From: an uncultured delta proteobacterium
Lineage (GTDB): Bacteria; Desulfobacterota; Syntrophia; Syntrophales; Smithellaceae
Assembly (NCBI GenBank): GCA_963851005.1
Contig: CAWKNI010000007.1
Coordinates: 1,566,904 to 1,630,903 of the forward strand
DNA: 64,000 bases
Reading direction: 5' to 3'
This document shows, piece after piece, positions 5,338 to 64,000 of the stretch. How positions within the stretch are numbered: the first letter of the stretch is position 1; each line of letters starts with the position of its first letter. Under the pieces are notes generated by a model that was not told the origin of the DNA, searched no databases, and was given only the letters and a program-made list of their open reading frames with translations. A program made the translations under genes and the position numbers.

Positions 5338-5378
5338 AAACCTCCGTTTCCTTTTTTATAAGAAAACGGAGGTTTTTT
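5338..5378 (+). terminator. intrinsic terminator after the hydratase gene
   Basis: The stem AACCTCCGTTT...AAACGGAGGTT is followed by a run of Ts. Confidence 0.7.
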
Positions 5379-5379
5379 A

Positions 5380-5745
5380 ATGACACTCGCTGAGAGTGAT
5401 CCAAGCTGAAAACGAATCCCGACGAGTCGGGATGAAGTTTGAAGCGTAAGGCAAACCATACCAGGCGCGTAGCGCCGTGGTAAAGCAAGTTCCGAGAATC
5501 GGGACGAAGCTCGTCCCTGACACCTTAAGGTGGTGGGATAATTCGCTCTAAGATTTTCCGAACACTGCGTGTCGGAAAATCAAGGTTCATTAAAGCGTAA
5601 GTGGTAGTGAGGCAAGCTGAAGACGAGTGCAACAAAGTATGAAGCGTAAGCCGAACTATCCAATAGCCAAAAGCTATTGGAAATTATCCCCGAAGTGTAG
5701 CGGAGTGGGATTATATTAATAGACAGAATTTAATCTGGCAATTAG
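5380..5745. repeat. mosaic array of short palindromic units (repeat family 2)
   Basis: At least 8 successive hairpins, including CACTCgctgaGAGTG, ATCCCGACgaGTCGGGAT, GGGACGaagcTCGTCCC, TTTTCCGAcactgcgtgTCGGAAAA, CCAATAGCcaaaaGCTATTGG and ATTATCCCC-n15-GGGATTAT. The linkers GAAGCGTAAG and GGGATAATTCG recur. Homologous units occur at 34395-34685 and 62545-62670. Confidence 0.7.
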
Positions 5746-8801: not shown

Positions 8802-8929
8802 TATACTATTTCTAAATCAAAGATGATAACGAGGCGGCAAGGCGTATTATACACGCATGACCTTTAGGTTATATGTCGAGGAGACGATGACGAGTCCAAT
8901 GCAGAGAGCGCTTTGATTTGGAATCGGAA
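8802..8929. mobile_element. MITE-like palindrome-ended element, copy 1 (degenerate right end, with a 16-nt mini-palindrome inserted at its centre)
   Basis: Left end TATACTATTTCTAAATCAAAG and right end CTTTGATTTGGAATCGGAA. The interior GAGGCGGCAAGGCGTATTATAC is homologous to the other copies. It abuts the cobO stop codon (8930). Confidence 0.75.
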
Positions 8930-9538
8930 CTAGTACTCAATGCCTGCGCGGTCTTTTATGCCCGCCATGTAATGATGTTTCACTTCCTTAACTTCGCTGA
9001 CGGTATCAGCCAGCTCAATTATTTCCGGCGGCGCATAGCGGCCGGTTAAGATTAGGTCAAGGTTTGCGGGCTTATTTTTAATCAATTTAATGACCTCTGT
9101 TAGAGCAATTAGTTTAAAATCCAGAGCTACGTTGATTTCATCGAGAATGACCATGTCATATTTTCCACTTTTGATTGCTTTTTGGGCCGCATCCAATCCT
9201 TTTTGTGCCAACTCAACATCAATGGCCGCGGGGTTATCACGCATAACAAAACTATCCAGACCGGACATGCGAATGGTTAAATGGGGAAGATATTTTTCCG
9301 CGGCAATAAATTCACCGTACTTTCTTCCTTTCATAAATTGCAGAACAAAAACCTTATAACCCTGACCGATGGCGCGCAGAGCCTGGCCAAAAGCGGCAGT
9401 TGTTTTTCCTTTGCCGTTGCCCGTAATTACTATCACCAAACCCTTGGCTGTCTTTATGGCAGGCTTTTTCACGGCTGTAGATTTCTTTTTTTTGACTGCT
9501 TTGGGTGCGGACATTTTTTTGCTTTTTGTGATCTTCAT
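8930..9538 (-). CDS. cobO: ATP:cob(I)alamin adenosyltransferase (CobA/CobO/BtuR type) with a Lys-rich N-terminal tail
   Basis: P-loop ITGNGKGKTTAAFGQALRA, then VLQFMKG, DMVILDEI, LILTGRYAPPEIIELADTVSEVKEVKHHY and GIEY. Confidence 0.85.
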   Translation of the reverse strand: MKITKSKKMSAPKAVKKKKSTAVKKPAIKTAKGLVIVITGNGKGKTTAAFGQALRAIGQGYKVFVLQFMKGRKYGEFIAAEKYLPHLTIRMSGLDSFVMRDNPAAIDVELAQKGLDAAQKAIKSGKYDMVILDEINVALDFKLIALTEVIKLIKNKPANLDLILTGRYAPPEIIELADTVSEVKEVKHHYMAGIKDRAGIEY

Positions 9539-10509
9539 TTTTCTTCCTGGTTTTTAAAAAATCTTTGGGCAATTTCTTCCGCCACGGAATAAGGATCAGC
9601 TTTTCTGTTTTTTATCTTTTCTGCAAAATGTTTCAGATCACCGCTATCTGCAAGTGAGCTCAAAACCGGTTCCAAAAGGCAGGCGCTCAAAGCATCTTTT
9701 ATTTCCGCCATCGCTTTGCGGTGCATTCTTTCGGTGAGTTTGCCGCTTTGTTGCAGATAAATATGATGCTCTTCTATTTTTTGAGTAAGTTTAGCGGTAT
9801 CTTCGGCAAAAGTATCCGGCTTAAAAGCATCGCCGATCATTACAATAGGCGGCTTCCAGCCATCGGCAGTTTTGGGCGACAAATTAAGCATGGAAGTCAA
9901 TTCCGTTTGCAATTGTTTGGCGCCGACGCGATTGGCTTTATTGATGACGAAAATATCGGCTATTTCCATTAATCCAGCTTTCATTGTCTGAATTTCATCG
10001 CCCATTCCGGGAACCAGAACGACCGCAACGCTGTGCGCGTGATTGATAATGTCAATTTCCTGTTGCCCAATGCCTACTGTTTCGACAATGATTATGTCTT
10101 TTCCCATTGCTTCCATAACGTGAATGGCATCGCCCGCAGCCTGCGAAAGGCCTCCCAGCGCGCCGCGGGTGGCCAGCGACCGGACGAAAACTCCGGTATC
10201 TTCGGCGTGGCGCTGCATGCGGATTCTATCACCCAGAATAGCGCCGCCGGTAAAAGGGCTGGTCGGGTCAACGGCCAGCACGCCGATAGTCTTATTCTGC
10301 TTTCGCAACTCGGTGATCAGCGCGTCAGTCAAAGTGCTTTTGCCGGCTCCAGGCGCTCCGGTTATTCCGATAATGAATGATTTGCCGGTATGGGCGTAAA
10401 GTTTTTTAATCTTAGTCTTGGCTTCGGGAATCTTATCTTCGATATCTCTGATGAGGCGAGAGGCTGAGCGGACATCGCCTGCACAGATTTTTTTAATGGT
10501 GGAATCCAT
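9535..10509 (-). CDS. meaB: methylmalonyl-CoA mutase-associated GTPase MeaB/ArgK
   Basis: GITGAPGAGKSTL, VLAVDPTSPFTGGAILGDRIRM, VETVGIGQ and NKAN (NKxD-like). It overlaps cobO by 4 nt. Confidence 0.9.
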   Translation of the reverse strand: MDSTIKKICAGDVRSASRLIRDIEDKIPEAKTKIKKLYAHTGKSFIIGITGAPGAGKSTLTDALITELRKQNKTIGVLAVDPTSPFTGGAILGDRIRMQRHAEDTGVFVRSLATRGALGGLSQAAGDAIHVMEAMGKDIIIVETVGIGQQEIDIINHAHSVAVVLVPGMGDEIQTMKAGLMEIADIFVINKANRVGAKQLQTELTSMLNLSPKTADGWKPPIVMIGDAFKPDTFAEDTAKLTQKIEEHHIYLQQSGKLTERMHRKAMAEIKDALSACLLEPVLSSLADSGDLKHFAEKIKNRKADPYSVAEEIAQRFFKNQEEK

Positions 10510-10536
10510 ATTGGCTTACCGTTTGAAAAAAATCTT

Positions 10537-10938
10537 TTAGTGCGGTTTTACGTTTGTTCTAATCCATTCCACAATGGAATCAAGGGAAGCGCCGGGAGTA
10601 AAGATAGCTTTGATGCCGGAATCGTAAAGCATGGGGAAATCCTGTTCGGGAATGATGCCACCGCCGATGACGGTAATATCGGATGCGCCTTTTTCATGCA
10701 GAAGTTCCACAACCCGTGGGAAAAGCGCGCGGTGAGCGCCGGAAAGACAACTCAATCCCACCAGATCAACATCTTCCTGAATGGCGGCCGCCGCAATTTG
10801 CTCCGGCGTTTGATGACAGCCCGTATAAACAACCTCAAATCCGGCATCGCGGAAACAACGGGCGAGAATACGGGCGCCGCGGTCGTGTCCATCCAGCCCC
10901 GGTTTGGCAACCATCACACGAATTTTTCTTTCCGGCAT
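10537..10938 (-). CDS. methylmalonyl-CoA mutase, B12-binding small subunit
   Basis: [29 protein letters not shown] carries the DxHxxG cobalamin-binding motif. The protein is 133 aa. Confidence 0.9.
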
Positions 10939-10972
10939 ATCGACTCCTTAAAATACTGTTATGAATTTGTTC

Positions 10973-11095
10973 GTACCGTTTCGATTTCAAAGGATAACGC
11001 GGCGGCAAGAAGGAGGCGCCGGAGGCGTATTACTAATACGTTGAGGACGCCGACGACGATGCCAACAAAGTTAGCCAAAGAAAGCGAAATGGTAC
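10973..11095. mobile_element. MITE-like element, copy 2 (diverged ends), between the two mcm subunit genes
   Basis: GTACCGTTTCGATTTCAAAG...GGCGTATTACTAATACGTTGAGGACGCCGACGACGATGCCAACAAAG...GAAAGCGAAATGGTAC. It fills the 156-nt gap between the stop at 11095 and the start at 10938. Confidence 0.7.
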
Positions 11096-12777
11096 TAATA
11101 TAGTCCCGGGTCTCGATACTCCCCATAAACTTCCCGATAGACATCACATATTTCCTGCAGGGTAGCCAGATTCTTTACCGCTTCGATGCAGTGCGGCATC
11201 ACGTTTTCGCCTTTTTTACAGGCATTTTTTATATTTTCCAGCGACTTCATGGTGGTGCGGTTATCGCGTCTGCGGCGCACGTCCTTAAGCCTTTTAATTT
11301 GCTCTTCGCCCACCTTTTCATCAATATCAACAAGCGGAATCGGATGTTTGGCGTCGGTTTCATATTTGTTCACTCCAACCATGATCTTGTCGCCCGCATC
11401 CAACTGTCTTTGAAACCTGTAAGCAGCTTCGGATATTTCCATCTGCGGGAACCCTTTTTCAATAGCGGTAATCATACCGCCCATCTCATCAATCTTATGA
11501 ATATATTCCCATGCTTTTTCTTCCATTTCGTTGGTGAGAGACTCGATAAAGTACGAACCGGCCAGCGGATCAATGGTATTGGCCACTCCCGTTTCTTCGG
11601 CTAATATTTGCTGCGTGCGCAGAGCGATTTCTACGGCATGCTCGGAAGGCAGGCAGAGAACCTCATCCAGCGAATTGGTGTGCAGCGATTGTGTGCCGCC
11701 AAGCACTGCCGCCAGGGCTTCCATTGTCGTGCGGATAACATTGTTGTATGGCTGTTGCGCTGTCAGTGAACATCCGGCCGTCTGGGTGTGGAAACGAAGC
11801 CACCACGAGCGGGGATTTTTCGCCCGGAAACGATCTTTCATAATTTTAGCCCACATGCGGCGCGCGGCCCTCAGTTTGCAAATTTCTTCAAAAAAATCGA
11901 TGTGAGAATTAAAAAAGAAAGACAAGCGAGGGGCAAAGTCATCAACGTTTAATTTCTTGCGGCGGACGACATCTTCAACGTATTCGATGCCGTCGCGGAT
12001 AGTGAAAGCCAGCTCCTGTACAGCCGTGGAACCTGCCTCACGAATGTGATAACCACTGATGCTGATTGTATTCCAATTGGGAACAAATTTTGTGCCGAAC
12101 TCAACCGTGTCGCTGATAAGCTTTACGGAAGGTTCCGGCGGGCACATAAAGGTTTTTTGGGCAATAAATTCTTTGAGCATATCATTTTGGATGGTGCCGC
12201 CGATTTTGGTAAGCGGCACGCCTTTGGCTTCAGCCGCCGCGCAATACATCGCCCATAACACGGTCGCCGGAGGATTAATTGTCATGGAAGTTGTAACCTC
12301 ATCCATAGGAATATCTTTCATGAGAGCCAGAAAATCTTCCAGTGTGTCTATGGCCACGCCGCATTTTCCCACTTCGCCCAGCGCTTTAGGTGAATCGCTG
12401 TCGTAGCCCATGAGTGTCGGAAAATCGAAAGCTGTACTTAAGCCCGTTTGCCCCTGACGCAGCAGCAAGTGCCAACGCTGGTTGGTATCCTGCGCGCTGC
12501 CCATGCCCGAGAACATACGGAATGTCCAGTAACGTCCCCGATAACCGGTCACCTGATTGCCGCGCAAATAAGGAAATTCGCCGGGAACACTGATATCTTT
12601 GGCGAAGTCTATGTCTTTAATATCTTCCGGAGTATAAAGCCTTTTGATTTCCAGATCGGAAATGGTGGAAAAACGATTTTTCTGATCGGGATTATTTTTT
12701 AGTGATTTTTTTACTTCATTCACCCATTTTTGGGTGAGTTTTAATGAAGCTTCCCGCATTTCTTTGGAGAAATACAC
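11095..12777 (-). CDS. methylmalonyl-CoA mutase, large catalytic (N-terminal TIM-barrel) subunit
   Basis: 560 aa, with FPYLRGNQVTGYRGRYWTFRMFSGMGSAQDTNQRW, LSTAFDFPTLMGYDSD and HTQTAGCSLTAQQPYNNV. Confidence 0.92.
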   Translation of the reverse strand: MYFSKEMREASLKLTQKWVNEVKKSLKNNPDQKNRFSTISDLEIKRLYTPEDIKDIDFAKDISVPGEFPYLRGNQVTGYRGRYWTFRMFSGMGSAQDTNQRWHLLLRQGQTGLSTAFDFPTLMGYDSDSPKALGEVGKCGVAIDTLEDFLALMKDIPMDEVTTSMTINPPATVLWAMYCAAAEAKGVPLTKIGGTIQNDMLKEFIAQKTFMCPPEPSVKLISDTVEFGTKFVPNWNTISISGYHIREAGSTAVQELAFTIRDGIEYVEDVVRRKKLNVDDFAPRLSFFFNSHIDFFEEICKLRAARRMWAKIMKDRFRAKNPRSWWLRFHTQTAGCSLTAQQPYNNVIRTTMEALAAVLGGTQSLHTNSLDEVLCLPSEHAVEIALRTQQILAEETGVANTIDPLAGSYFIESLTNEMEEKAWEYIHKIDEMGGMITAIEKGFPQMEISEAAYRFQRQLDAGDKIMVGVNKYETDAKHPIPLVDIDEKVGEEQIKRLKDVRRRRDNRTTMKSLENIKNACKKGENVMPHCIEAVKNLATLQEICDVYREVYGEYRDPGLY

Positions 12778-13045
12778 TATCTGTCCTCCTCAATATTAGC
12801 TTACATAATAATTAAGAATAATTGCTTACAAAAACTAAAAGGCACTAACTCAAAACTTTTGTTTTTGTCAAGATATATTCATTGAAAGCGTCGCGCATGT
12901 AAATATATGAAGAAAGCTCCTGCATGTCAAAGCAATTTTGGCCGAACCAAGTATCTCGTATTTTCTATGACGGAGAATTTGAAATGCTGACGTTGATGAA
13001 TAATAGCGGAGTTGGATAATAGTATCTATATATATTTCAATATAA

Positions 13046-15926: not shown

Positions 15927-16059
15927 TATTATACCAATTCTAAATCAAAGCGCTATTTTTGTTGGCTTCGTTGTCGGCTTCCTCAACGTATGTAAAATAC
16001 GCCTCGTCGCCTCTGCCTAGCCGCCTCAATATCATCTTTGATTTAGAAATGGTATTATA
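15927..16059. mobile_element. MITE-like element, copy 3 (archetype)
   Basis: TATTATACCAATTCTAAATCAAAG CGCTATTTTTGTTGGCTTCGTTGTCGGCTTCCTCAACGTATGTAAAATACGCCTCGTCGCCTCTGCCTAGCCGCCTCAATATCAT CTTTGATTTAGAAATGGTATTATA. It is followed at 16060-16085 by a family-2 hairpin, CCCCAcagcttacgTTGGGGTATAAT. Confidence 0.85.
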
Positions 16060-21663: not shown

Positions 21664-21904
21664 AATACCATTACTAAATCAAAGATGATATTGAGGCGGC
21701 AGTGAAACTCGAATTACAGTTACGCAGTAAACTGGAATTCGTTAGTTGAACTGTCCCGCTTCGGCGGGGCTAGGCTTAAGGCCCGGCATGCGCCGGGTAA
21801 ACTCTGAGGCGTATTATACATACGTTGAGGAAGCCGACAACGACCCAGGCATACGCCGGGCTTCGCTGCCAACAAAAATAGCGCTTTGATTTAGAATTGG
21901 TATA
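21664..21904. mobile_element. MITE-like element, copy 4: composite variant with nested inserts
   Basis: Canonical ends AATACCATTACTAAATCAAAG...CTTTGATTTAGAATTGGTATA. A 73-nt insert (21701-21774) matches the insert in copy 5. Extra hairpins are CCCGGCatgcGCCGGG and CCCAGGCatacGCCGGG. Confidence 0.8.
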
Positions 21905-28292: not shown

Positions 28293-28308
28293 CCGGCGTA
28301 CGGGGATT

Positions 28309-28505
28309 GATACCAATTCGCATTCATTCTTCTACCTTTGTTGGCTGCGTCATCGGCTCCTCGACGTATATTAGAATACGCCTGCGTCGCCTCTTCCTTG
28401 CCCCGCCGAAGCGGGACAGTTCAACTAACGAATTCCAGTTCACTGCGCAACTGCAATTCGAGTTTCACTGCCGCCTCGGTATACTTTTGAATGCAAAATG
28501 GTATG
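28309..28505. mobile_element. MITE-like element, copy 5: composite variant with diverged but still complementary ends
   Basis: ATACCAATTCGCATTCA...TGAATGCAAAATGGTAT. The interior TTTGTTGGCTGCGTCATCGGCTCCTCGACGTATATTAGAATACGCCTGCGTCGCC is homologous to the other copies. The nested 73-nt insert lies at 28397-28469. Confidence 0.75.
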
Positions 28506-28660
28506 ATTGCACGCTCTTATTAATTCTTCCTTTATGTTGTTTTTCTTATTTTCCCAATCCACTCAACATTTTAATTTGCAATAGACAAAAATTACGTGTA
28601 GAATGAACTAATATATGTGTTGAGCATTAACTTCATTCTTATAAAAAAGGAGAAATAATT

Positions 28661-29110: not shown

Positions 29111-29312
29111 ATATGAGGGTTGTTAAAAATATAGGCGGGTATTTACTCAACGATTTTTCTATGTGAAGTGTATGTTAGGTTAGTGTACTAATTCCGCTCA
29201 AAAGCTCTTCAATGTTTCTGAAAAGAGAGTCTATTTTTTTCCCAAAACTTCCTCGGGAATACACAAACCAAGTGCGGCGATGGCTGCACTGGATAAGTAG
29301 GTGATTTTTTTA

Positions 29313-30263
29313 ATGAGCAGCGACGCAGAAATTAAGTTATACAAAAAGCTGGCCGAGATAGGTGATGCTGCCGCCCAAAACCGGTTGGGTTTGATATCCC
29401 AGCATGGTGAGGGTGTTCCGCAGGACTATGCCGTGGCCGTCAAATGGTATCTCAAGGCGGCCGAACAGGGTTATGCTGCCGCCCAGAATAATCTGGGTTT
29501 AATATACCAAAGTGGTAAGGGAGTTAAGCAAGACTATGTTGAGGCCGTCAAATGGTATCTCAAGGCGGCTGAACAGGGTTATGTTGAAGCCCAGAATAAT
29601 CTGGGTTTGATGTACCAGGATGGTAAGGGAGTTGAGCAAGACTATGCTGAGGCCGTCAAATGGTATCTCAAGGCGGCTGAACAGGGTTATGCTGATGCCC
29701 AGAATAATCTGGGTTTGATGTACCAGAATGGTAAAGGTGTTGAGCAAGATGATGCTGAGGCAATCAGATGGTATCTCAAGGCGGCCGAACAGGGTTATGC
29801 TGCTGCCCAAAATAATCTGGGTTTGATTTACCAGAATGGTAAAAGTGTTAAACAGGACAATGTTGAGGCAATCAGATGGTATCTCAAGGCGGCTGAAAAT
29901 GGTTCTGCTGATGCCCAGAATAATCTGGGGTGGATATACCAGAGTGGTAAAGGTGTTAAGCAGGACAATACTGCAGCCATCAAATGGTATCTCAAGGCGG
30001 CTGAACAGCGTAGTGCTGTTGCCCAGTATAATCTAGGTTTGATGTATAGCAGAGGATTGCAAGACTATGCCGAGGCTGCAAGATGGTTTTTAAAAGCTGC
30101 TGAACAAGGAATTGCGGATGCACAGTTCAATTTGGGTTTGATATTAGAAGAAGGTAGAGGCGTTAAACAGGATTCAGATTCTGCTGCGATGTGGTATAGT
30201 GAAGCGGTTGAGCAAGGACATGCGGATGCCCAGTTAAGACTGGATAAGATAAAAGATAAATAA
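29313..30263 (+). CDS. Sel1-like repeat (SLR/TPR-like) protein
   Basis: About eight 36-aa repeats of AAQNNLGLIYQ.GKGV.QDY.EAVKWYLKAAEQGY. The ATG at 29313 is preferred over the GTG at 29301. Confidence 0.9.
   Translation: MSSDAEIKLYKKLAEIGDAAAQNRLGLISQHGEGVPQDYAVAVKWYLKAAEQGYAAAQNNLGLIYQSGKGVKQDYVEAVKWYLKAAEQGYVEAQNNLGLMYQDGKGVEQDYAEAVKWYLKAAEQGYADAQNNLGLMYQNGKGVEQDDAEAIRWYLKAAEQGYAAAQNNLGLIYQNGKSVKQDNVEAIRWYLKAAENGSADAQNNLGWIYQSGKGVKQDNTAAIKWYLKAAEQRSAVAQYNLGLMYSRGLQDYAEAARWFLKAAEQGIADAQFNLGLILEEGRGVKQDSDSAAMWYSEAVEQGHADAQLRLDKIKDK
29367..30050 (+). repeat. 108-bp tandem repeat inside the Sel1 gene
   Basis: GTCAAATGGTATCTCAAGGCGGC recurs at 29439, 29547 and 29655, with variants at 29763, 29871 and 29979, giving an exact 108-nt period. 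Long runs are identical at the nucleotide level. Confidence 0.85.
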
Positions 30264-34134: not shown

Positions 34135-34262
34135 TAATTCCATTTCTAAATCAAAGCGCTATTTTTGTTGGCGTCGTTGTCGGCCTCCTCAACGTATGTA
34201 TAATACGTCTCGTCGCCTCCGCCTAGCCGCCTCAATATCATCTTTGATTTAGAAATGGTATA
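34135..34262. mobile_element. MITE-like element, copy 6
   Basis: TAATTCCATTTCTAAATCAAAG...CTTTGATTTAGAAATGGTATA. The interior is nearly identical to copies 3 and 7. Confidence 0.85.
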
Positions 34263-34394: not shown

Positions 34395-34685
34395 TTAAAA
34401 GTAAATTCAAATCCCGCGTCCCTGCCAACTACGTTGGCGGGATTGTTCCTCTTGCGCTTCGAGCTTCTCTCAATTCACTCTCAGCGAGAGTCACGATCGC
34501 TACGCTCTTGGGATAATTTCCAATAGCCGTTGGCTATTGGATAATTCGGCTAAAAAACTTCAATGCGCCTATAGTGACCTTTAGGTTATTTGCTTTTGAA
34601 GTTTAAGCCTCATTACGACTAACAAGTTTCAGTCGTAGATGACCTTCAGGTTATTCACTACGTTCCTAAAACTTGAGTCTCATTA
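34395..34685. repeat. mosaic array of family-2 palindromic units, overlapping the rbp stop codon
   Basis: AAATCCCGC-n19-GCGGGATT, ACTCTCAGCGAGAGT and GGATAATTTCCAATAGCcgttGGCTATTGGATAATTCGG. Two stem-loop modules follow, ending in AGCCTCATTA and GAGTCTCATTA. Confidence 0.7.
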
Positions 34686-35027
34686 GTAACGGCCACCACC
34701 ACCGCCACGATTTCCGCCGCCGCGATTTCCGCCGCTTCTGTAGCCGCCGCCGCGATTTCCGCCGCCGGCGCCAAATTCTTTCTTCGGTCTGGCTTCATTA
34801 ACGGTGATTGCTTTTCCGTCAAGCATTCCACCATTGAACTTCTTGATGGCTTCTGCGGCGCCCTCTTCCGTTTTCATTTCGACAAATCCAAACCCTTTAG
34901 ATTGACCTGTGAACTTGTCCTTAATAATTGCAGCGGAAACAACTTCCCCCGCTTCACTAAAATTGGTTTTAAGGTCTTCATCCGTGACTTTATAAGACAC
35001 ATTTCCGACATACAAATTTTTGTTCAT
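34683..35027 (-). CDS. RRM-type RNA-binding protein with a Gly/Arg-rich tail
   Basis: MNKNLYVGNVSYKVTDEDL (RNP2), KGFGFVEM (RNP1) and a C-terminal GGGNRGGGYRSGGNRGGGNRGGGGGRY. Confidence 0.92.
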   Translation of the reverse strand: MNKNLYVGNVSYKVTDEDLKTNFSEAGEVVSAAIIKDKFTGQSKGFGFVEMKTEEGAAEAIKKFNGGMLDGKAITVNEARPKKEFGAGGGNRGGGYRSGGNRGGGNRGGGGGRY

Positions 35028-47865: not shown

Positions 47866-47951
47866 GTTTCAAATCCCGCGTCGCTTCGCTCCTGGGATAA
47901 TTCGACTAGCAAATATTACGGCACTATGTTTGTAATATTTGAGTCTCATTA
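47866..47951 (+). repeat. family-2 module: ATCCC-n16-GGGAT hairpin, GGGATAATTCG, a variable-stem hairpin, then GAGTCTCATTA
   Basis: GTTTCAAATCCCgcgtcgcttcgctcctGGGATAATTCGACTAG CAAATATTAC ggcactatgttt GTAATATTTG AGTCTCATTA. Confidence 0.7.
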
Positions 47952-52527: not shown

Positions 52528-52655
52528 TTTACCAATTCTAAATCAAAGCGCTATTTTTGTTGGCGTCGTTGTCGGCGTCCTCAACGTATGTATAATACGC
52601 CTCGTCGCCTCCGCCTAGCCATCTCAATATCATCTTTGATTTAAAAATGGTATTA
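52528..52655. mobile_element. MITE-like element, copy 7, with 2 nt between it and the radical SAM start codon
   Basis: TTTACCAATTCTAAATCAAAG...CTTTGATTTAAAAATGGTATTA. The interior is nearly identical to copy 6. Confidence 0.85.
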
Positions 52656-52926
52656 TTCAGATTGTTTTCGTAATATCTATTTTTTGCTTAAGCAAGGCCA
52701 ATTTTATGACTGTCCTTTAAGCTTGACAGTTGGTAATCTTTAAGCAATAGTCACCTCTCATTATAGCAAATGTTATCCTGTTTCAGACGGAAGTATTGGA
52801 AATAATGCATAAAGACAACATAATCGTCAGTATTGAGTCATTCAATAATCGAGGCCTTGCTTTTTTTCAATAGATGGTTATGTTGGCAGTATAGTTGAAA
52901 ACAATAAATGTAAAATTTGGTATTTT

Positions 52927-53712
52927 GTGAAAAATAAATCTTTTGGCTATAAAGGTAAAATAATACTGGCTCTGGCTATCGCGCTGTTTATAGCGTTGAT
53001 GGCCAATGCGATATTTGCGGCTGATAAGTATCCTTCGCCGCGCGGCGTAGTCAATGATTTTGCCAATGTTATTGATCAGGATAACGCCGTTAAAATAGAA
53101 GCCCTGGCGCGTGAAGTTTTACAAAAAACAGGCACGGCGGTTGTTGTTGTAACTGTCCCTACTATCGGAGAGGGAGAAGAAACCAGTCTTTATGCTAATG
53201 GCCTTTATAAAGCGTGGGGTATCGGGAAAAAGGGCGAGGACAAAGGTCTTTTAATTTTTTTAACTGTTAAAGAAAGAAAATATTGGATTGAAACCGGTTA
53301 CGGCGTAGAGGGTATATTGCCGGATGGTTTAGTTGGCGAAATCAGAGACAAGTATCTAAAGCCGCAACTCCAAGCAGGTAATTATGGTGATGCTTTTTAT
53401 GACACAGTGTCTGCATTTAGTTCTATTATTGCCAAAGATGCCGGTGTTCAGTTGAGCGGTTCGCCTGCACCATACCGGACAAATGCTCGCGCCCAGCAAA
53501 AAGGCGTTAATGTTTTCGGGCTGATTTTTTTCTTCATTGCCGCTGTTCTCCTTTTAGGCACAAGAACGGGCAGGGCGATGCTTCCCTGGATATTGCTCTT
53601 GTTCCTGAGTGGCGGTCGCGGCGGTGGAGGTGGCGGCGGCGGTTTCGGCGGCGGCTTTGGCGGCTTTGGCGGCGGCGGCAGCGGCGGCGGCGGGGCCGGT
53701 GGAGATTTTTAA
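52927..53712 (+). CDS. TPM-domain protein (YgcG-like) with a TM segment and a poly-Gly tail
   Basis: VVNDFANVIDQ..., YKAWGIGKKGEDKGLLIFLTVKERKYWIETGYGVEG, and a C-terminal GGRGGGGGGGGFGGGFGGFGGGGSGGGGAGG. GTG start. Confidence 0.8.
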   Translation: MKNKSFGYKGKIILALAIALFIALMANAIFAADKYPSPRGVVNDFANVIDQDNAVKIEALAREVLQKTGTAVVVVTVPTIGEGEETSLYANGLYKAWGIGKKGEDKGLLIFLTVKERKYWIETGYGVEGILPDGLVGEIRDKYLKPQLQAGNYGDAFYDTVSAFSSIIAKDAGVQLSGSPAPYRTNARAQQKGVNVFGLIFFFIAAVLLLGTRTGRAMLPWILLLFLSGGRGGGGGGGGFGGGFGGFGGGGSGGGGAGGDF

Positions 53713-53724
53713 CAAATATTTAGG

Positions 53725-55085: not shown

Positions 55086-55123
55086 GCCCTGAACCTTATA
55101 TGCAAAAAGGTTCAGGGCTTTTT
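55086..55123 (+). terminator. intrinsic terminator after lemA
   Basis: GCCCTGAACC-n13-GGTTCAGGGC followed by TTTTT. Confidence 0.75.
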
Positions 55124-55182
55124 AATGAGACTCAAATTTCAAAAACGCAGTGAATTGAAATTTGTTAGCCGAATTATCCCGG
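55124..55182 (-). repeat. family-2 module (minus orientation)
   Basis: The reverse complement reads CCGGGATAATTCGGCTAA CAAATTTCAA ttcactgcgttt TTGAAATTTG AGTCTCATT. Confidence 0.7.
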
Positions 55183-58894: not shown

Positions 58895-59152
58895 CCCCCT
58901 TTAATTCCCTCCTTTTTAAAGGAGGGTTAGGGAGGATTTTACTTTTTGTGCTTATTATCCCACGGCGCTATGCGCCTGGGACAATTCAACTTGCGCTTCA
59001 ATCTTCGTAATACTCGTTTTACCACGGCGCTACGCGCCTGGTATAATTCGACCAGCAAGCTTCAGCGCACTTTGTTTCTGAAGCTCGGGTCTCATTATCC
59101 GCTAGTTTCATTGAATCCCCCTCAATCCCCCTTTACAAAAGGGGGATTTTTT
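58895..59152. repeat. family-2 palindromic units filling the trpC-trpD gap
   Basis: CCCTCCTTtttaAAGGAGGG; TTATCCCacggcgctatgcgcctGGGACAATTC; TTTTACCacggcgctacgcgcctGGTATAATTCGACCAGCA AGCTTCAG cgcactttgttt CTGAAGCT CGGGTCTCATTA; and AATCCCCCTttacaaaAGGGGGATT. Confidence 0.7.
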
Positions 59153-62534: not shown

Positions 62535-62544
62535 TAGATTTTTA

Positions 62545-62670
62545 GTGACACTCGCTAAGAACGAGCGTAGCGAAGTTCGAAGCGTAAGTGGAACTATCCC
62601 AGGAGCGACGCGACATGGGATTAATGACACCTTATCGAAAACGTAGTGAACTGAAATCTACCTGTTTTCG
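62545..62670. repeat. family-2 palindromic units
   Basis: GTGACACTCGCTAAGA...GAAGTTCGAAGCGTAAGTGGAACTATCCCaggagcgacgcgacatGGGATTAATGACAC, then CGAAAAC-n21-GTTTTCG. The region is homologous to 5380-5470 and, inverted, to 47871-47905. Confidence 0.65.
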
Positions 62671-63893: not shown

Positions 63894-64000
63894 ATTATAC
63901 CATTTCTAAATCAAAGATGATATCGCGACGGTAAGGAGGAGGCGACGAGGCGTATTATATATACATACGTTGAGGAAGCCGACGACGAAGCCAACAAAGA
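63894..64000. mobile_element. MITE-like element, copy 8 (truncated by the window edge)
   Basis: TATTATACCATTTCTAAATCAAAGATGATATCGCGACGGTAAGGAGGAGGCGACGAGGCGTATTATATATACATACGTTGAGGAAGCCGACGACGAAGCCAACAAAGA. It begins 29 nt upstream of the acyl-CoA dehydrogenase start. Confidence 0.8.

What the first reader, a model, noticed from the sequence alone, without database searches (positions are those of the whole stretch)
28309..28505. Terminal stems of diverged element copies carry compensatory substitutions
The canonical ends pair as CTAAATCAAAG / CTTTGATTTAG.
- In copy 5 the left end is CGCATTCA... and the right end is ...TGAATGCA. Relative to the consensus, three positions changed on both arms so that pairing is kept (T>G with A>C, A>C with T>G, A>T with T>A).
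- In copy 2 (10973-11095) the left end is CGATTTC and the right end is GAAAGCG. Again the changes are paired (T>G with A>C, AA>TT with TT>AA).

A transposase binding site would be expected to conserve sequence, not just complementarity. The pattern therefore suggests selection for, or copying across, a terminal hairpin, in an RNA or as a DNA cruciform or ssDNA structure. It could also reflect distinct subfamilies.
Basis: partly seen in the sequence, partly recalled or inferred. Interest (0 to 1): 0.65.

Follow-up and report, generated by a model that had tools for sequence, protein, structure and literature searches.

The report
Mobile hairpin repeat with co-varying stems
The finding sits in one copy of a previously undescribed ~123-bp miniature transposon of Smithella-like bacteria, whose two ends really do change in matched pairs so that a long hairpin is kept; this is real and well supported, but it is a known kind of behaviour for bacterial miniature transposons.

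Summary
Window 28311-28503 is one of 8 copies in the window of a 121-123-bp intergenic repeat; some copies are longer because they carry inserted modules.

What it is:
- I collected 107 copies, almost all from Smithella, Smithellaceae and Syntrophaceae MAGs.
- It is a MITE. It has terminal inverted repeats starting TACC...GGTA and a 3-bp TNA target duplication.
- A clean filled-versus-empty site pair shows that it moves.

Paired changes:
- The roughly 30-bp terminal stem co-varies strongly. All 25 stem pairs show changes on both sides, 92-94% of cells are paired against about 35% when the partner is slid, and 0 of 500 shuffles reach this.
- The same result holds on a sequence-only alignment.
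Copy 2 and copy 5 carry the signatures of two old stem subfamilies, B and C.
- Independent events are nevertheless plentiful. There are 43 distinct compensated doubles within subfamilies, and further ones between orthologous copies in three species.

Unusual features:
- The ~70-nt core is more conserved than neighbouring protein genes.
- One strand consistently folds better.
- The duplicated TNA is often the neighbouring gene's stop codon, with a 25:5 orientation bias.

Best reading: selection on a hairpin formed by one strand when single-stranded. Whether that strand is RNA or ssDNA is unresolved. It is a new member of a known kind; the closest precedents are bcr1, ERIC and Correia elements.

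The parts
28311..28503 (-). Copy 5 of the MITE, element proper: 193 bp, long form, stem type C. The better-folding ('sense') strand is the - strand.
   Evidence: CM hit of 112.5 bits. Boundaries. Folds at -79.3 kcal/mol (z -6.4) on the - strand against -55.9 on the + strand.
28308..28310 (.). Target-site duplication TGA, low side of copy 5.
   Evidence: Identical to 28504-28506. Family-wide TNA duplication.
28504..28506 (.). Target-site duplication TGA, high side of copy 5.
28478..28503 (-). 5' arm of the terminal stem of copy 5, in sense orientation: UACCAUUUUGCAUUCAAAAGUAUACC.
   Evidence: Pairs with 28311-28336 in the MFE and centroid folds. These columns co-vary across 107 copies.
28311..28336 (-). 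3' arm of the terminal stem of copy 5, in sense orientation.
28400..28472 (-). Optional ~70-nt two-hairpin module inserted at a fixed site of the core. It is shared with copy 4 (21698-21770).
   Evidence: 87-nt inverted match, 93% (I1). Found in 6 copies with stem types A, B and C. Contigs lacking exactly these 70 nt appear.
8804..8929 (+). Copy 1: stem type A with a diverged core. The high-side flanking triplet CTA is the stop codon of the corrinoid adenosyltransferase gene 8930-9538(-).
10974..11094 (+). Copy 2: stem type B. It lies between the methylmalonyl-CoA mutase large subunit (11095-12777, -) and the B12-binding subunit (10537-10938, -). The flanking CTA at 11095-11097 is the mutase stop codon.
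   Evidence: Orthologous copies in L040 and L007.
15932..16054 (-). Copy 3: 123 bp, stem type A, TSD TTA/TTA.
21666..21902 (+). Copy 4: 237 bp, stem type A, three inserted modules, TSD TAA/TAA.
34138..34260 (-). Copy 6: 123 bp, stem type A, TSD TAA/TAA.
52530..52652 (-). Copy 7: 123 bp, stem type A. Orthologous copies in L048 and L094 differ from it by inserted modules.
63898..64000 (+). Copy 8, cut off by the end of the window.
52704..52706 (.). Empty target site. The window has a single TTA here, whereas the related genome L042 carries TTA-MITE-TTA.

Best explanation
The region is one copy of a non-autonomous DNA transposon (MITE) family. The family is confined, as far as sampled, to Smithella, Smithellaceae and Syntrophaceae.

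Shown:
- The basic element is 121-123 bp. It begins TACC and ends GGTA.
- It duplicates a 3-bp TNA target and is present or absent at homologous sites in related genomes.
- One strand folds into a rod-like hairpin. Its roughly 30-bp terminal stem is made of the two ends.
- The stem sequence differs between three old subfamilies: A (CTAAATC), B (CGMTTTC, which includes copy 2) and C (TGCATTC, which includes copy 5).
- The stem also differs within subfamilies and between orthologous copies, and the changes are overwhelmingly paired.

Inferred:
- Base pairing of the ends, in a single-stranded form of one particular strand, is under selection. The stem sequence is free to drift by compensatory change.
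- The ~70-nt core is constrained in sequence.
- The single-stranded form is either the transcript or a single-stranded DNA stage of transposition or replication. The element lies inside long RNA-derived contigs together with its neighbour genes, which makes a transcript plausible. I lean slightly towards RNA but cannot decide.
- The transposase is probably a DDE enzyme of the IS5 family, IS1031-like group, because that group targets TNA. It was not found.
For: Identity as a MITE:
- There are 8 copies in the window and 107 in the window plus 113 loci, almost all from Smithellaceae MAGs.
- The flanking triplets are identical TNA in 49 of 106 copies. The middle base is the same in 63 and complementary in 11, against about 27% identity expected.
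- Filled site in L042...CAATT-TTA-[TACC...GGTA]-TTA-CAG. Empty site in the window...CAATT-TTA-TGACTG.
- A second empty site is an RNA contig that joins window 10941 to 11094 with 26 other letters in between.
- The IS1031 group of the IS5 family prefers TNA (PMC1676026).

Covariation:
-, with the numbers given in the observation check.
- Within subfamilies, 43 distinct both-sides changes restore a Watson-Crick pair, 7 give G.U and 12 are broken. About one third Watson-Crick would be expected by chance.

In situ evolution:
- Window copy 2, L040 and L007 sit at the stop codon of the same methylmalonyl-CoA mutase gene and share rare core signatures.
- Their arms are only about 65% identical between the window and L040 or L007, yet all fold into the same architecture at -50 to -60 kcal/mol.
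- L040 and L007 differ by two paired changes.
- The core is 86-90% identical. The flanking genes are 72-84% identical and the flanking spacer only 24-39%.

Strand specificity:
- The sense strand is more stable in 86 of 96 copies with RNA parameters and 93 of 96 with DNA parameters.
- G.U cells number 88 against 41 A.C cells, though the two arise about equally often: 25 against 22 distinct variants.
- No matching mutational bias is seen at unpaired sites.

Transcription:
- The element lies inside RNA-library contigs of up to 17 kb, at the same depth as its neighbours.

Precedent:
- The MITE bcr1 is transcribed and keeps its RNA structure by compensatory changes (PMC3184786).
- Correia and ERIC transcripts are processed by RNase III and RNase E (PMC10969869).
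Against: - No autonomous IS with matching ends was found in about 0.9 Mb. The transposase is therefore inferred from the TNA duplication only.
- About half of the distinct compensated changes are transversion-type, 23 of 43. These have no wobble intermediate and fit a copying mechanism at least as well as stepwise selection.
- The better-folding strand is usually not the strand that the neighbouring gene's mRNA would carry: 25:5 at stop codons and 39:21 in tandem gene pairs. The G.U excess is the same in both contexts. This is awkward for a simple cis-acting mRNA hairpin.
- The RNA data are unstranded contigs, may contain DNA, and their high depth is explained by copy number.
- Copies were retrieved with a core motif and a model built on core plus stem, so core conservation is partly an ascertainment effect. 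Window copy 1 has a diverged core.
- Independent insertion at the same stop codon, instead of orthology, cannot be fully excluded for the mutase trio.
Confidence: 0.6

Rival explanations
1. Transposase matching, no hairpin needed. Each stem type is the binding site of its own transposase variant. Both ends must fit the same protein, so a change of specificity shows up as 'compensatory' change of the two inverted ends.
For: - Three major stem types coexist in one genome: the window has A six times, B once and C once. They are shared across many species.
- The two cases in the finding are differences at exactly this subfamily level.
- The variable positions (about 6-17 and 26-32 from the tip) are where transposases usually bind.
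Against: - There are 43 distinct compensated doubles within subfamilies, many in single copies.
- Paired changes occur between orthologous, resident copies.
- G.U is tolerated on one strand more than A.C, which has no meaning for a double-stranded binding site.
- The extreme tips stay constant while about 25 pairs vary.
- No transposase was found.
Confidence: 0.15
2. Neutral copying between the arms. A mutation in one arm is copied to the other by intramolecular template switching at a quasi-palindrome, or by hairpin-templated repair, during replication. Complementarity then persists without selection on any function.
For: - 23 of 43 distinct compensated changes are transversion-type, with no wobble intermediate.
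- Neighbouring pairs often change as blocks, for example GTT/AAT to AAG/CTT between window copy 2 and L040.
- A chimeric copy (L029) shows that arms are exchanged between copies.
- The stem type changes while the core and the 70-nt module stay the same.
Against: - Copying should be blind to strand. Yet G.U states on one strand persist about twice as much as A.C states, although both arise equally often.
- Conserved G.U pairs, and the paths C-G > U.G > U-A at several columns, run almost only through sense-strand wobbles.
- The core is conserved beyond neighbouring genes, so selection acts on the element in any case.
Confidence: 0.2
3. A stand-alone structured small RNA gene family that is not mobile.
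For: - Strong covariation and a conserved core.
- Optional hairpin modules with UUCG- or GNRA-like loops.
Against: - Target duplications and empty sites.
- No orientation consistent with its own promoter. A candidate -10 box lies in the least conserved loop.
- RNA depth equals that of the neighbours once copy number is considered.
- No Rfam match.
Confidence: 0.03

Closest known systems
bcr1 repeat of the Bacillus cereus group (MITE, about 155 bp)
   Same: - A small non-autonomous element flanked by a short direct repeat.
- Dispersed in intergenic DNA and transcribed.
- Compensatory base changes maintain a folded RNA structure (PMC3184786, read).
   Different: - It occurs in an unrelated phylum and no sequence relationship is evident.
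- Its direct repeats are 5 bp rather than TNA.
- Here the strand that folds best is mostly not the mRNA strand of the neighbours, and the core is conserved across species.
ERIC (enterobacterial repetitive intergenic consensus, 127 bp) and Correia elements of Neisseria
   Same: - Similar size. Both are imperfect palindromes or inverted-repeat elements that fold into long hairpins when transcribed.
- ERIC has long forms with insertions at fixed internal sites (my own knowledge).
- Orientation-dependent effects on mRNA through RNase E and RNase III (PMC10969869).
   Different: - Correia elements duplicate TA, not TNA (my own knowledge).
- No sequence similarity was seen.
- No functional data exist here.
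MITEs derived from IS5-family elements of the IS1031 group; PIF/Harbinger-Tourist elements in eukaryotes
   Same: A 3-bp TNA (mostly TWA) target duplication. The IS1031 preference for TNA is stated in PMC1676026. The Tourist TAA/TTA duplication is my own knowledge.
   Different: - No partner IS or transposase was identified.
- The termini TACC...GGTA were not compared with catalogued IS ends, because no IS database was at hand.
REP/REPIN elements mobilised by RAYT transposases
   Same: Abundant intergenic palindromes whose stems keep complementarity. They are recognised as single-stranded hairpins, which would explain a strand-specific fold.
   Different: - REPs are 20-40 nt units and lack target duplications (my own knowledge).
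- They are tied to a RAYT gene, and none was seen here.
- The TNA duplication observed here argues for staggered-cut integration.

Membership tests
Bacterial MITE | Small (under about 400 bp), non-coding, many dispersed copies | tested here: met
   The basic form is 121-123 bp. There are 8 copies in 64 kb and 107 copies in the sample, and all window copies are intergenic.
Bacterial MITE | Terminal inverted repeats | tested here: met
   About 30 bp of pairing between the two ends, with tips TACC/GGTA.
Bacterial MITE | Target-site duplication | tested here: met
   TNA on both sides. The triplets are identical in 49 of 106 copies, and the middle base is the same in 63 against complementary in 11. 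Four window copies have perfect duplications.
Bacterial MITE | Presence/absence polymorphism at homologous sites | tested here: met
   L042 filled against window 52704-52706 empty. Copy 7's site is empty in L042. The mutase site is empty in an RNA contig.
Bacterial MITE | A related autonomous IS with matching ends that supplies the transposase | tested here: inconclusive
   None was found in the window plus 113 loci, about 0.9 Mb. No transposase domain was found in 20 window proteins. Whole genomes were not searchable.
IS5 family, IS1031-group derivative | 3-bp duplication of TNA | tested here: met
   The family property comes from PMC1676026.
IS5 family, IS1031-group derivative | Ends similar to those of a catalogued IS of that group; DDE transposase partner | not testable with these tools
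   No IS end catalogue was available and no partner was found.
REP/REPIN (RAYT-mobilised) | Short palindromic units without target duplication, linked to a RAYT gene | tested here: not met
   The unit is 123 bp with a TNA duplication. No RAYT-like gene was seen among the proteins scanned.
Any curated RNA family (Rfam 15) | Match to a covariance model at the gathering score | tested here: not met
   0 matches over the whole window. Only chance-level hits (E of 2.6 or more) on copy 4.
Structured nucleic acid under selection for pairing | Significant covariation that is not explained by one or two founders | tested here: met
   (0 of 500 shuffles, plus slide controls). (43 distinct compensated doubles within subfamilies). 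(orthologous copies). R-scape itself was not available.

The most novel reading that the evidence does not exclude
The element is more than a selfish MITE. On this reading it is a mobile, modular structured nucleic acid with three properties:
- its core is a conserved recognition site;
- its terminal helix is recognised only as a helix on one specific strand;
- it lands on stop codons (TAA/TGA are TNA) in a preferred orientation inside operons.

That would imply one of two things. Either there is a strand-specific, hairpin-dependent transposition mechanism that still makes TNA duplications, or the element has been recruited by the host across the Smithellaceae as a regulatory or processing element. 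The copy between the two methylmalonyl-CoA mutase subunit genes would be an example of the second.
Probability: 0.15. Interest if true: 0.7.

Novelty: new member of a known kind. Interest (0 to 1): 0.42.

Why it matters
- Smithella and its relatives are uncultivated or hard-to-grow syntrophs that matter for methanogenic degradation of alkanes and fatty acids. Their genomes are known almost only as MAGs.
- At about one copy per 8 kb in this window, this repeat will break assemblies. It marks strain differences and sits inside operons for central metabolism, for example between the methylmalonyl-CoA mutase subunit genes.
- It is a clean natural data set for an old question about bacterial MITEs: are their hairpins kept by selection on RNA, by the transposition mechanism, or by DNA-level copying? 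The family offers three ways to approach this:
  - many independent compensatory events;
  - orthologous copies across species;
  - a measurable asymmetry between the two strands.

Tried and rejected
- **Known RNA family.** No Rfam match.
- **Internal promoter.** Copy 6 has TTGTCG-16-TATAAT on the weaker strand. However, the -10 box lies in the apical loop, the least conserved part of the core, and is absent from copy 5. Rejected as a family feature.
- **Terminator.** There is no GC-rich stem followed by a U tract at the element ends.
- **Small ORF.** Type A copies read ATG...TAG over about 33 codons on the sense strand. Type B lacks the ATG, and the inserted modules are not multiples of three. 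Rejected by inspection.
- **Abundant discrete small RNA.** The very high RNA depth over the element is 10-500 times that of the flanks. It is the sum of many contigs, each at the depth of its neighbours. The element lies inside contigs of 0.9-17 kb, so the depth reflects copy number.
- **UUCG tetraloop as an RNA hallmark.** The loop of the 70-nt module is UUCG only in the two window copies. Elsewhere it varies: TTGA, TTAA, ATCA, TTCA. This is weak evidence only.
- **Autonomous partner.** Orphan ends and pairs of ends 260-3500 bp apart gave nothing.
- **Replication-strand rule.** The window has 4 copies on each strand. There is therefore no strict single-orientation rule of the IS200/IS605 type.
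- **Mutational bias as the cause of the G.U excess.** Not supported at unpaired sites.
- **Prior description.** Searches linking Smithella or Syntrophus to MITEs or repeats found none.

Full report
**1. What is at the coordinates**

Window 28309-28505 covers one copy of an interspersed repeat. I call it copy 5.
- The element proper is 28311-28503.
- It begins TACC, ends GGTA, and is flanked by TGA on both sides, at 28308-28310 and 28504-28506.
- The canonical end motif CTAAATCAAAG occurs 12 times in the window against 2.1 expected.
- A covariance model built from seven window copies finds exactly eight copies in the window:

| Copy | Coordinates | Better-folding strand | Note |
|---|---|---|---|
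| 1 | 8804-8929 | + | |
| 2 | 10974-11094 | + | |
| 3 | 15932-16054 | - | |
| 4 | 21666-21902 | + | |
| 5 | 28311-28503 | - | |
| 6 | 34138-34260 | - | |
| 7 | 52530-52652 | - | |
| 8 | 63898 onward | + | cut by the window end |

All eight lie between ORFs. The neighbours are ordinary housekeeping genes. None of the 20 proteins scanned has a transposase domain. Examples:
- Copy 5 lies between a tandem universal-stress-protein gene and an ankyrin-repeat gene.
- Copy 2 lies between the large subunit of methylmalonyl-CoA mutase and its B12-binding subunit.

**2.

- In copy 5 the arms read CGCATTCA / TGAATGCA against the canonical CTAAATCA / TGATTTAG. Three positions changed on both sides and remain complementary.
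- In copy 2 the arms are CGATTTC / GAAAGCG, again with paired changes, plus one unpaired A.G.
Pairing runs from the TACC tip for about 30 bp, and deeper pairs also co-vary.
- Every copy folds into a rod-like hairpin with z-scores of -6 to -8.

**3. The family outside the window**

- I scanned one genome per species with a core motif that does not include the stem. Nearly all are from Smithella, Smithellaceae, Syntrophaceae or 'delta proteobacterium' MAGs.
- The model found 107 copies in the window plus these loci (alignment A3).
- The window's own organism is a relative of these MAGs. The best syntenic matches are 78-88% identical, with up to about 95% over one short segment. It occurs in peat, soil and sediment metagenomes.
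- No paper in the searchable library links Smithella or Syntrophus to such a repeat.

**4. It is a mobile element**

- The three bases outside TACC...GGTA are the same on both sides in 49 of 106 copies, and they are TNA.
- The middle base is identical in 63 copies and complementary in 11, against about 27% identity expected from composition. This is therefore a direct duplication, not an extension of the inverted repeat.
- A filled and an empty site can be read directly:
  - L042 has ...GGCCAATT-TTA-[TACC...GGTA]-TTA-CAGTTC....
  - The window has ...GGCCAATT-TTA-TGACTG... at 52696-52712.
- Conversely, the site of copy 7 is empty in L042 but filled in L048 and L094.
- One metatranscriptome contig joins window 10941 to 11094 with 26 other letters in between. 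That is a relative without copy 2.
- A 3-bp TNA target is the stated preference of the IS1031 group of the IS5 family (PMC1676026).
- No autonomous partner was found in about 0.9 Mb.

**5. Covariation**

| Measure | Model-fitted alignment, 107 copies | MAFFT alignment, 81 short copies |
|---|---|---|
| Cells forming a standard pair | 92.5% | 94.3% |
| Same, with partner slid 1-3 columns | 26-37% | 21-43% |
| Pairs with both-sides changes | 29 of 38 (all 25 in the terminal helix) | 20 of 24 |
| Shuffles reaching the observed value | 0 of 500 | 0 of 500 |

On the MAFFT alignment RNAalifold found the terminal helix by itself. The result is therefore not produced by fitting the alignment to the structure.

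**6. Founders or independent events?**

Both.
- The stems fall into three large types:
  - A: CTAAATC, 47 copies.
  - B: CGATTTC or CGCTTTC, 30 copies, including copy 2.
  - C: TGCATTC, 19 copies, including copy 5.
- These types coexist in one genome and are shared across species. The two examples in the finding are therefore subfamily signatures.
- Within the subfamilies there are still 43 distinct cases (pair and state) in which both sides differ from the subfamily consensus and a Watson-Crick pair is restored. Seven give G.U and 12 are broken. By chance only about a third would be Watson-Crick.
- Many of these cases are visible in single copies, for example:
  - L055: CCGGTTC / GGACCGG.
  - L047: CCTATTC...GCTTGC / GCAAGC...GGATAGG.
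  - L104: TACTATTTAGC / GCTAAATAGTA.

**7. Orthologous copies**

*The mutase trio.* Window copy 2, L040 and L007 lie at the stop codon of the same mutase gene.
- All three proteins end ...GEYRDPGLY*, read.
- Both flanking genes align.
- The three copies share two uncommon core signatures.
- An RNA contig of run X27 shows the same arrangement in a fourth organism.
- Identity between the three:

| Region | Identity |
|---|---|
| Core | 86-90% |
| Flanking genes | 72-84% |
| Adjacent spacer | 24-39% |
| Arms, window against the other two | about 65% |

- All three fold into the same architecture, at -50.4, -59.8 and -50.9 kcal/mol.
- L040 and L007 differ by GGATACCG/CGGTAGCC against GGATGCCG/CGGCAGCC, and by a G.G against U-A position. 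These are paired changes at a resident locus.

*The copy 7 group.* Copy 7, L048 and L094 share a U.G state. L094 also has TATCA/TGATA where the others have TACCA/TGGTA.

Taken together, complementarity is maintained in place, not only when new subfamilies are founded.

**8. Anatomy beyond the stem**

- The core is the most conserved part. Its consensus is GAGGCGGC-AGG-GGAGGCG..G-AGGCGTAT-loop-ATACGTTGAGGA-GCCGAC-ACG..-GCCAACAAAG. The apical loop is the least conserved part.
- Between subfamilies in the window, the arms are 62-67% identical but the cores 77-87%. Copy 1 is the reverse.
- Part of this is ascertainment, because the retrieval used a core motif.
- Optional modules sit at fixed sites:
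  - A 70-nt two-hairpin module (28400-28472 in copy 5, also in copy 4) occurs in copies with A, B and C stems.
  - Inserts of 20 or 87 nt occur in the apical loop.
  - A 22-nt hairpin occurs in the 3' half.
  - An 85-90-nt module is nested at one place of the 3' arm in six copies.
- Orthologous copies differ by these modules: copy 7 against L048 and L094, and copy 4 against L079.
- Short forms with the core deleted also exist: 73-84 nt, for example in L004, L100, L017 and L065.

**9. Which molecule folds?**

- The strand reading TACCATTTCTAAATCAAAGATGATA...GGAGG... ('sense') is the more stable one in 86 of 96 copies with RNA parameters, by a mean of 8.4 kcal/mol. With DNA parameters it is more stable in 93 of 96.
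- In the terminal helix there are 88 G.U cells against 41 A.C cells. Both kinds arise about equally often, at 25 against 22 distinct variants. G.U states therefore persist, and A.C states stay as singletons.
- At several columns the route from one Watson-Crick pair to another runs almost only through the sense-strand wobble. Column 13/335 is an example: CG 72, UG 19, UA 8, CA 1.
- Unpaired sites show no matching mutational bias.
- A cruciform or a double-stranded binding site would be blind to this asymmetry. The selected form is therefore a single strand.
- That strand is mostly not the mRNA strand of the neighbours:
  - The flanking TNA is the in-frame stop codon of an ORF of at least 80 codons on the opposite strand in 25 copies, but on the same strand in only 5.
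  - In tandem gene pairs the count is 39 against 21.
  - The G.U excess is the same in both settings, 18:9 and 70:32.
- RNA libraries do contain the element.
  - The contigs are unstranded.
  - The high depth is the sum of many loci.
  - The element sits inside long contigs at the depth of its neighbours.
  - This shows read-through transcription at best, not a discrete RNA.
- I therefore cannot decide between two options:
  - A transcript.
  - A single-stranded DNA stage that is intrinsic to the element's propagation. This option would explain why the asymmetry ignores the genomic context.

**10. Rivals**

- *Transposase matching.* It explains the three big stem types. It does not explain the many private and in-place paired changes or the wobble asymmetry.
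- *Neutral arm-to-arm copying* (quasi-palindrome template switching).
  - It fits the high share of transversion-type swaps (23 of 43), the block changes and the chimeric copy L029.
  - It does not fit the strand asymmetry or the conserved core.
- *A non-mobile RNA gene family.* It is excluded by the duplications and empty sites.

**11. Comparison with what is known**

- Bacterial MITEs are known to give transcripts with long stable hairpins (PMC10969869).
- The MITE bcr1 of the Bacillus cereus group is transcribed and keeps its fold by compensatory changes (PMC3184786).
- Correia and ERIC elements are processed by RNase III and RNase E, with effects on the host mRNA.
- The present family is a new member of this kind in a lineage where none was described.
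- Its less usual traits are:
  - a core more conserved than the neighbouring genes;
  - stems that are the fastest-evolving yet best-paired part;
  - use of stop codons as TNA targets, with a 5:1 orientation bias;
  - a strand asymmetry that is independent of context.

**12. Verdict**

The terminal hairpin is kept by paired change, but within a genuine transposon, and the two cited cases are subfamily signatures.
- It is a new member of a known kind, of moderate interest.

Noticed in passing
window 5374-5702, 34498-34685, 47871-47951, 55123-55180, 58951-59097, 62539-62597: A second, unrelated interspersed repeat family. It has a GC-rich palindrome of variable sequence (for example CCCACGGCGCTATGCGCCTGGGA or TCCAATAGCCGTTGGCTATTGGA) followed by a conserved GGGATAATTCGRCT...TTGAGTCTCATTA segment. 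Its palindromes also look compensatory.
   Followed up: no
107 copies; in the window, copy 1 (8930-8932) and copy 2 (11095-11097): The duplicated TNA target is the stop codon of the abutting gene in 25 copies when the gene lies on the strand opposite to the better-folding strand, but in only 5 copies in the other orientation. In tandem gene pairs the split is 39:21. The cause is unknown. Avoidance of the GGAGG-rich strand, or of the more perfect duplex, in mRNA is a guess.
   Followed up: partly
L026:4048-4085, L048, L080:3769-3899, L015, L049, L082 (3' arm of the MITE): An 85-90-nt two-hairpin module is nested at the same place in the 3' arm of six copies, with both A-type and B-type stems. 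The module itself differs by paired changes: TTTTCGCC-AGCA-TGGCGAAAA against TTACCGCC-TGCAA-GGTGGTAA.
   Followed up: partly
window 28400-28472 and 21698-21770; L042, L034, L088, L048: A 70-nt module sits at one fixed core site. It occurs with all three stem types and is present or absent between orthologous copies. It is bounded by GGCGG on both sides. RNA contigs lacking exactly these 70 nt have 3-4 nt of junction homology.
   Followed up: partly
window 8855-8875 (core of copy 1), 34575-34590, 34640-34655; L106, L076, L088, L048 apical loops: A short palindromic motif, TGACCTT(C/T)AGGTTA, recurs in three settings: the diverged core of copy 1, the second repeat family, and a ~20-nt insert in the apical loop of several MITE copies.
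   Followed up: no
L029:3543-3684: A chimeric copy with a type B 5' arm and a type A 3' arm, so the ends do not pair. This is evidence for recombination between copies.
   Followed up: no
window 10500-12800: Copy 2 sits between the two methylmalonyl-CoA mutase subunit genes. The same place is occupied in L040, L007 and an RNA contig of run X27, and is empty in a contig of run X23.
   Followed up: yes
window 29238-30173: A tandem array of 108-nt units inside ORF 29301-30263. It encodes a Sel1-repeat protein with 8 repeats.
   Followed up: yes
window 34683-35027 and 53611-53721: Gly-rich low-complexity tails: an RRM-domain RNA-binding protein with a repetitive tail (34699-34773), and a TPM-domain protein ending in GGGF-type repeats.
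   Followed up: no
window as a whole versus other loci: The window holds 8 copies in 64 kb. The 8-kb loci of other species held only about 11 copies beyond the one they were fetched for, in about 0.8 Mb. Copy number probably differs strongly between species.
   Followed up: no
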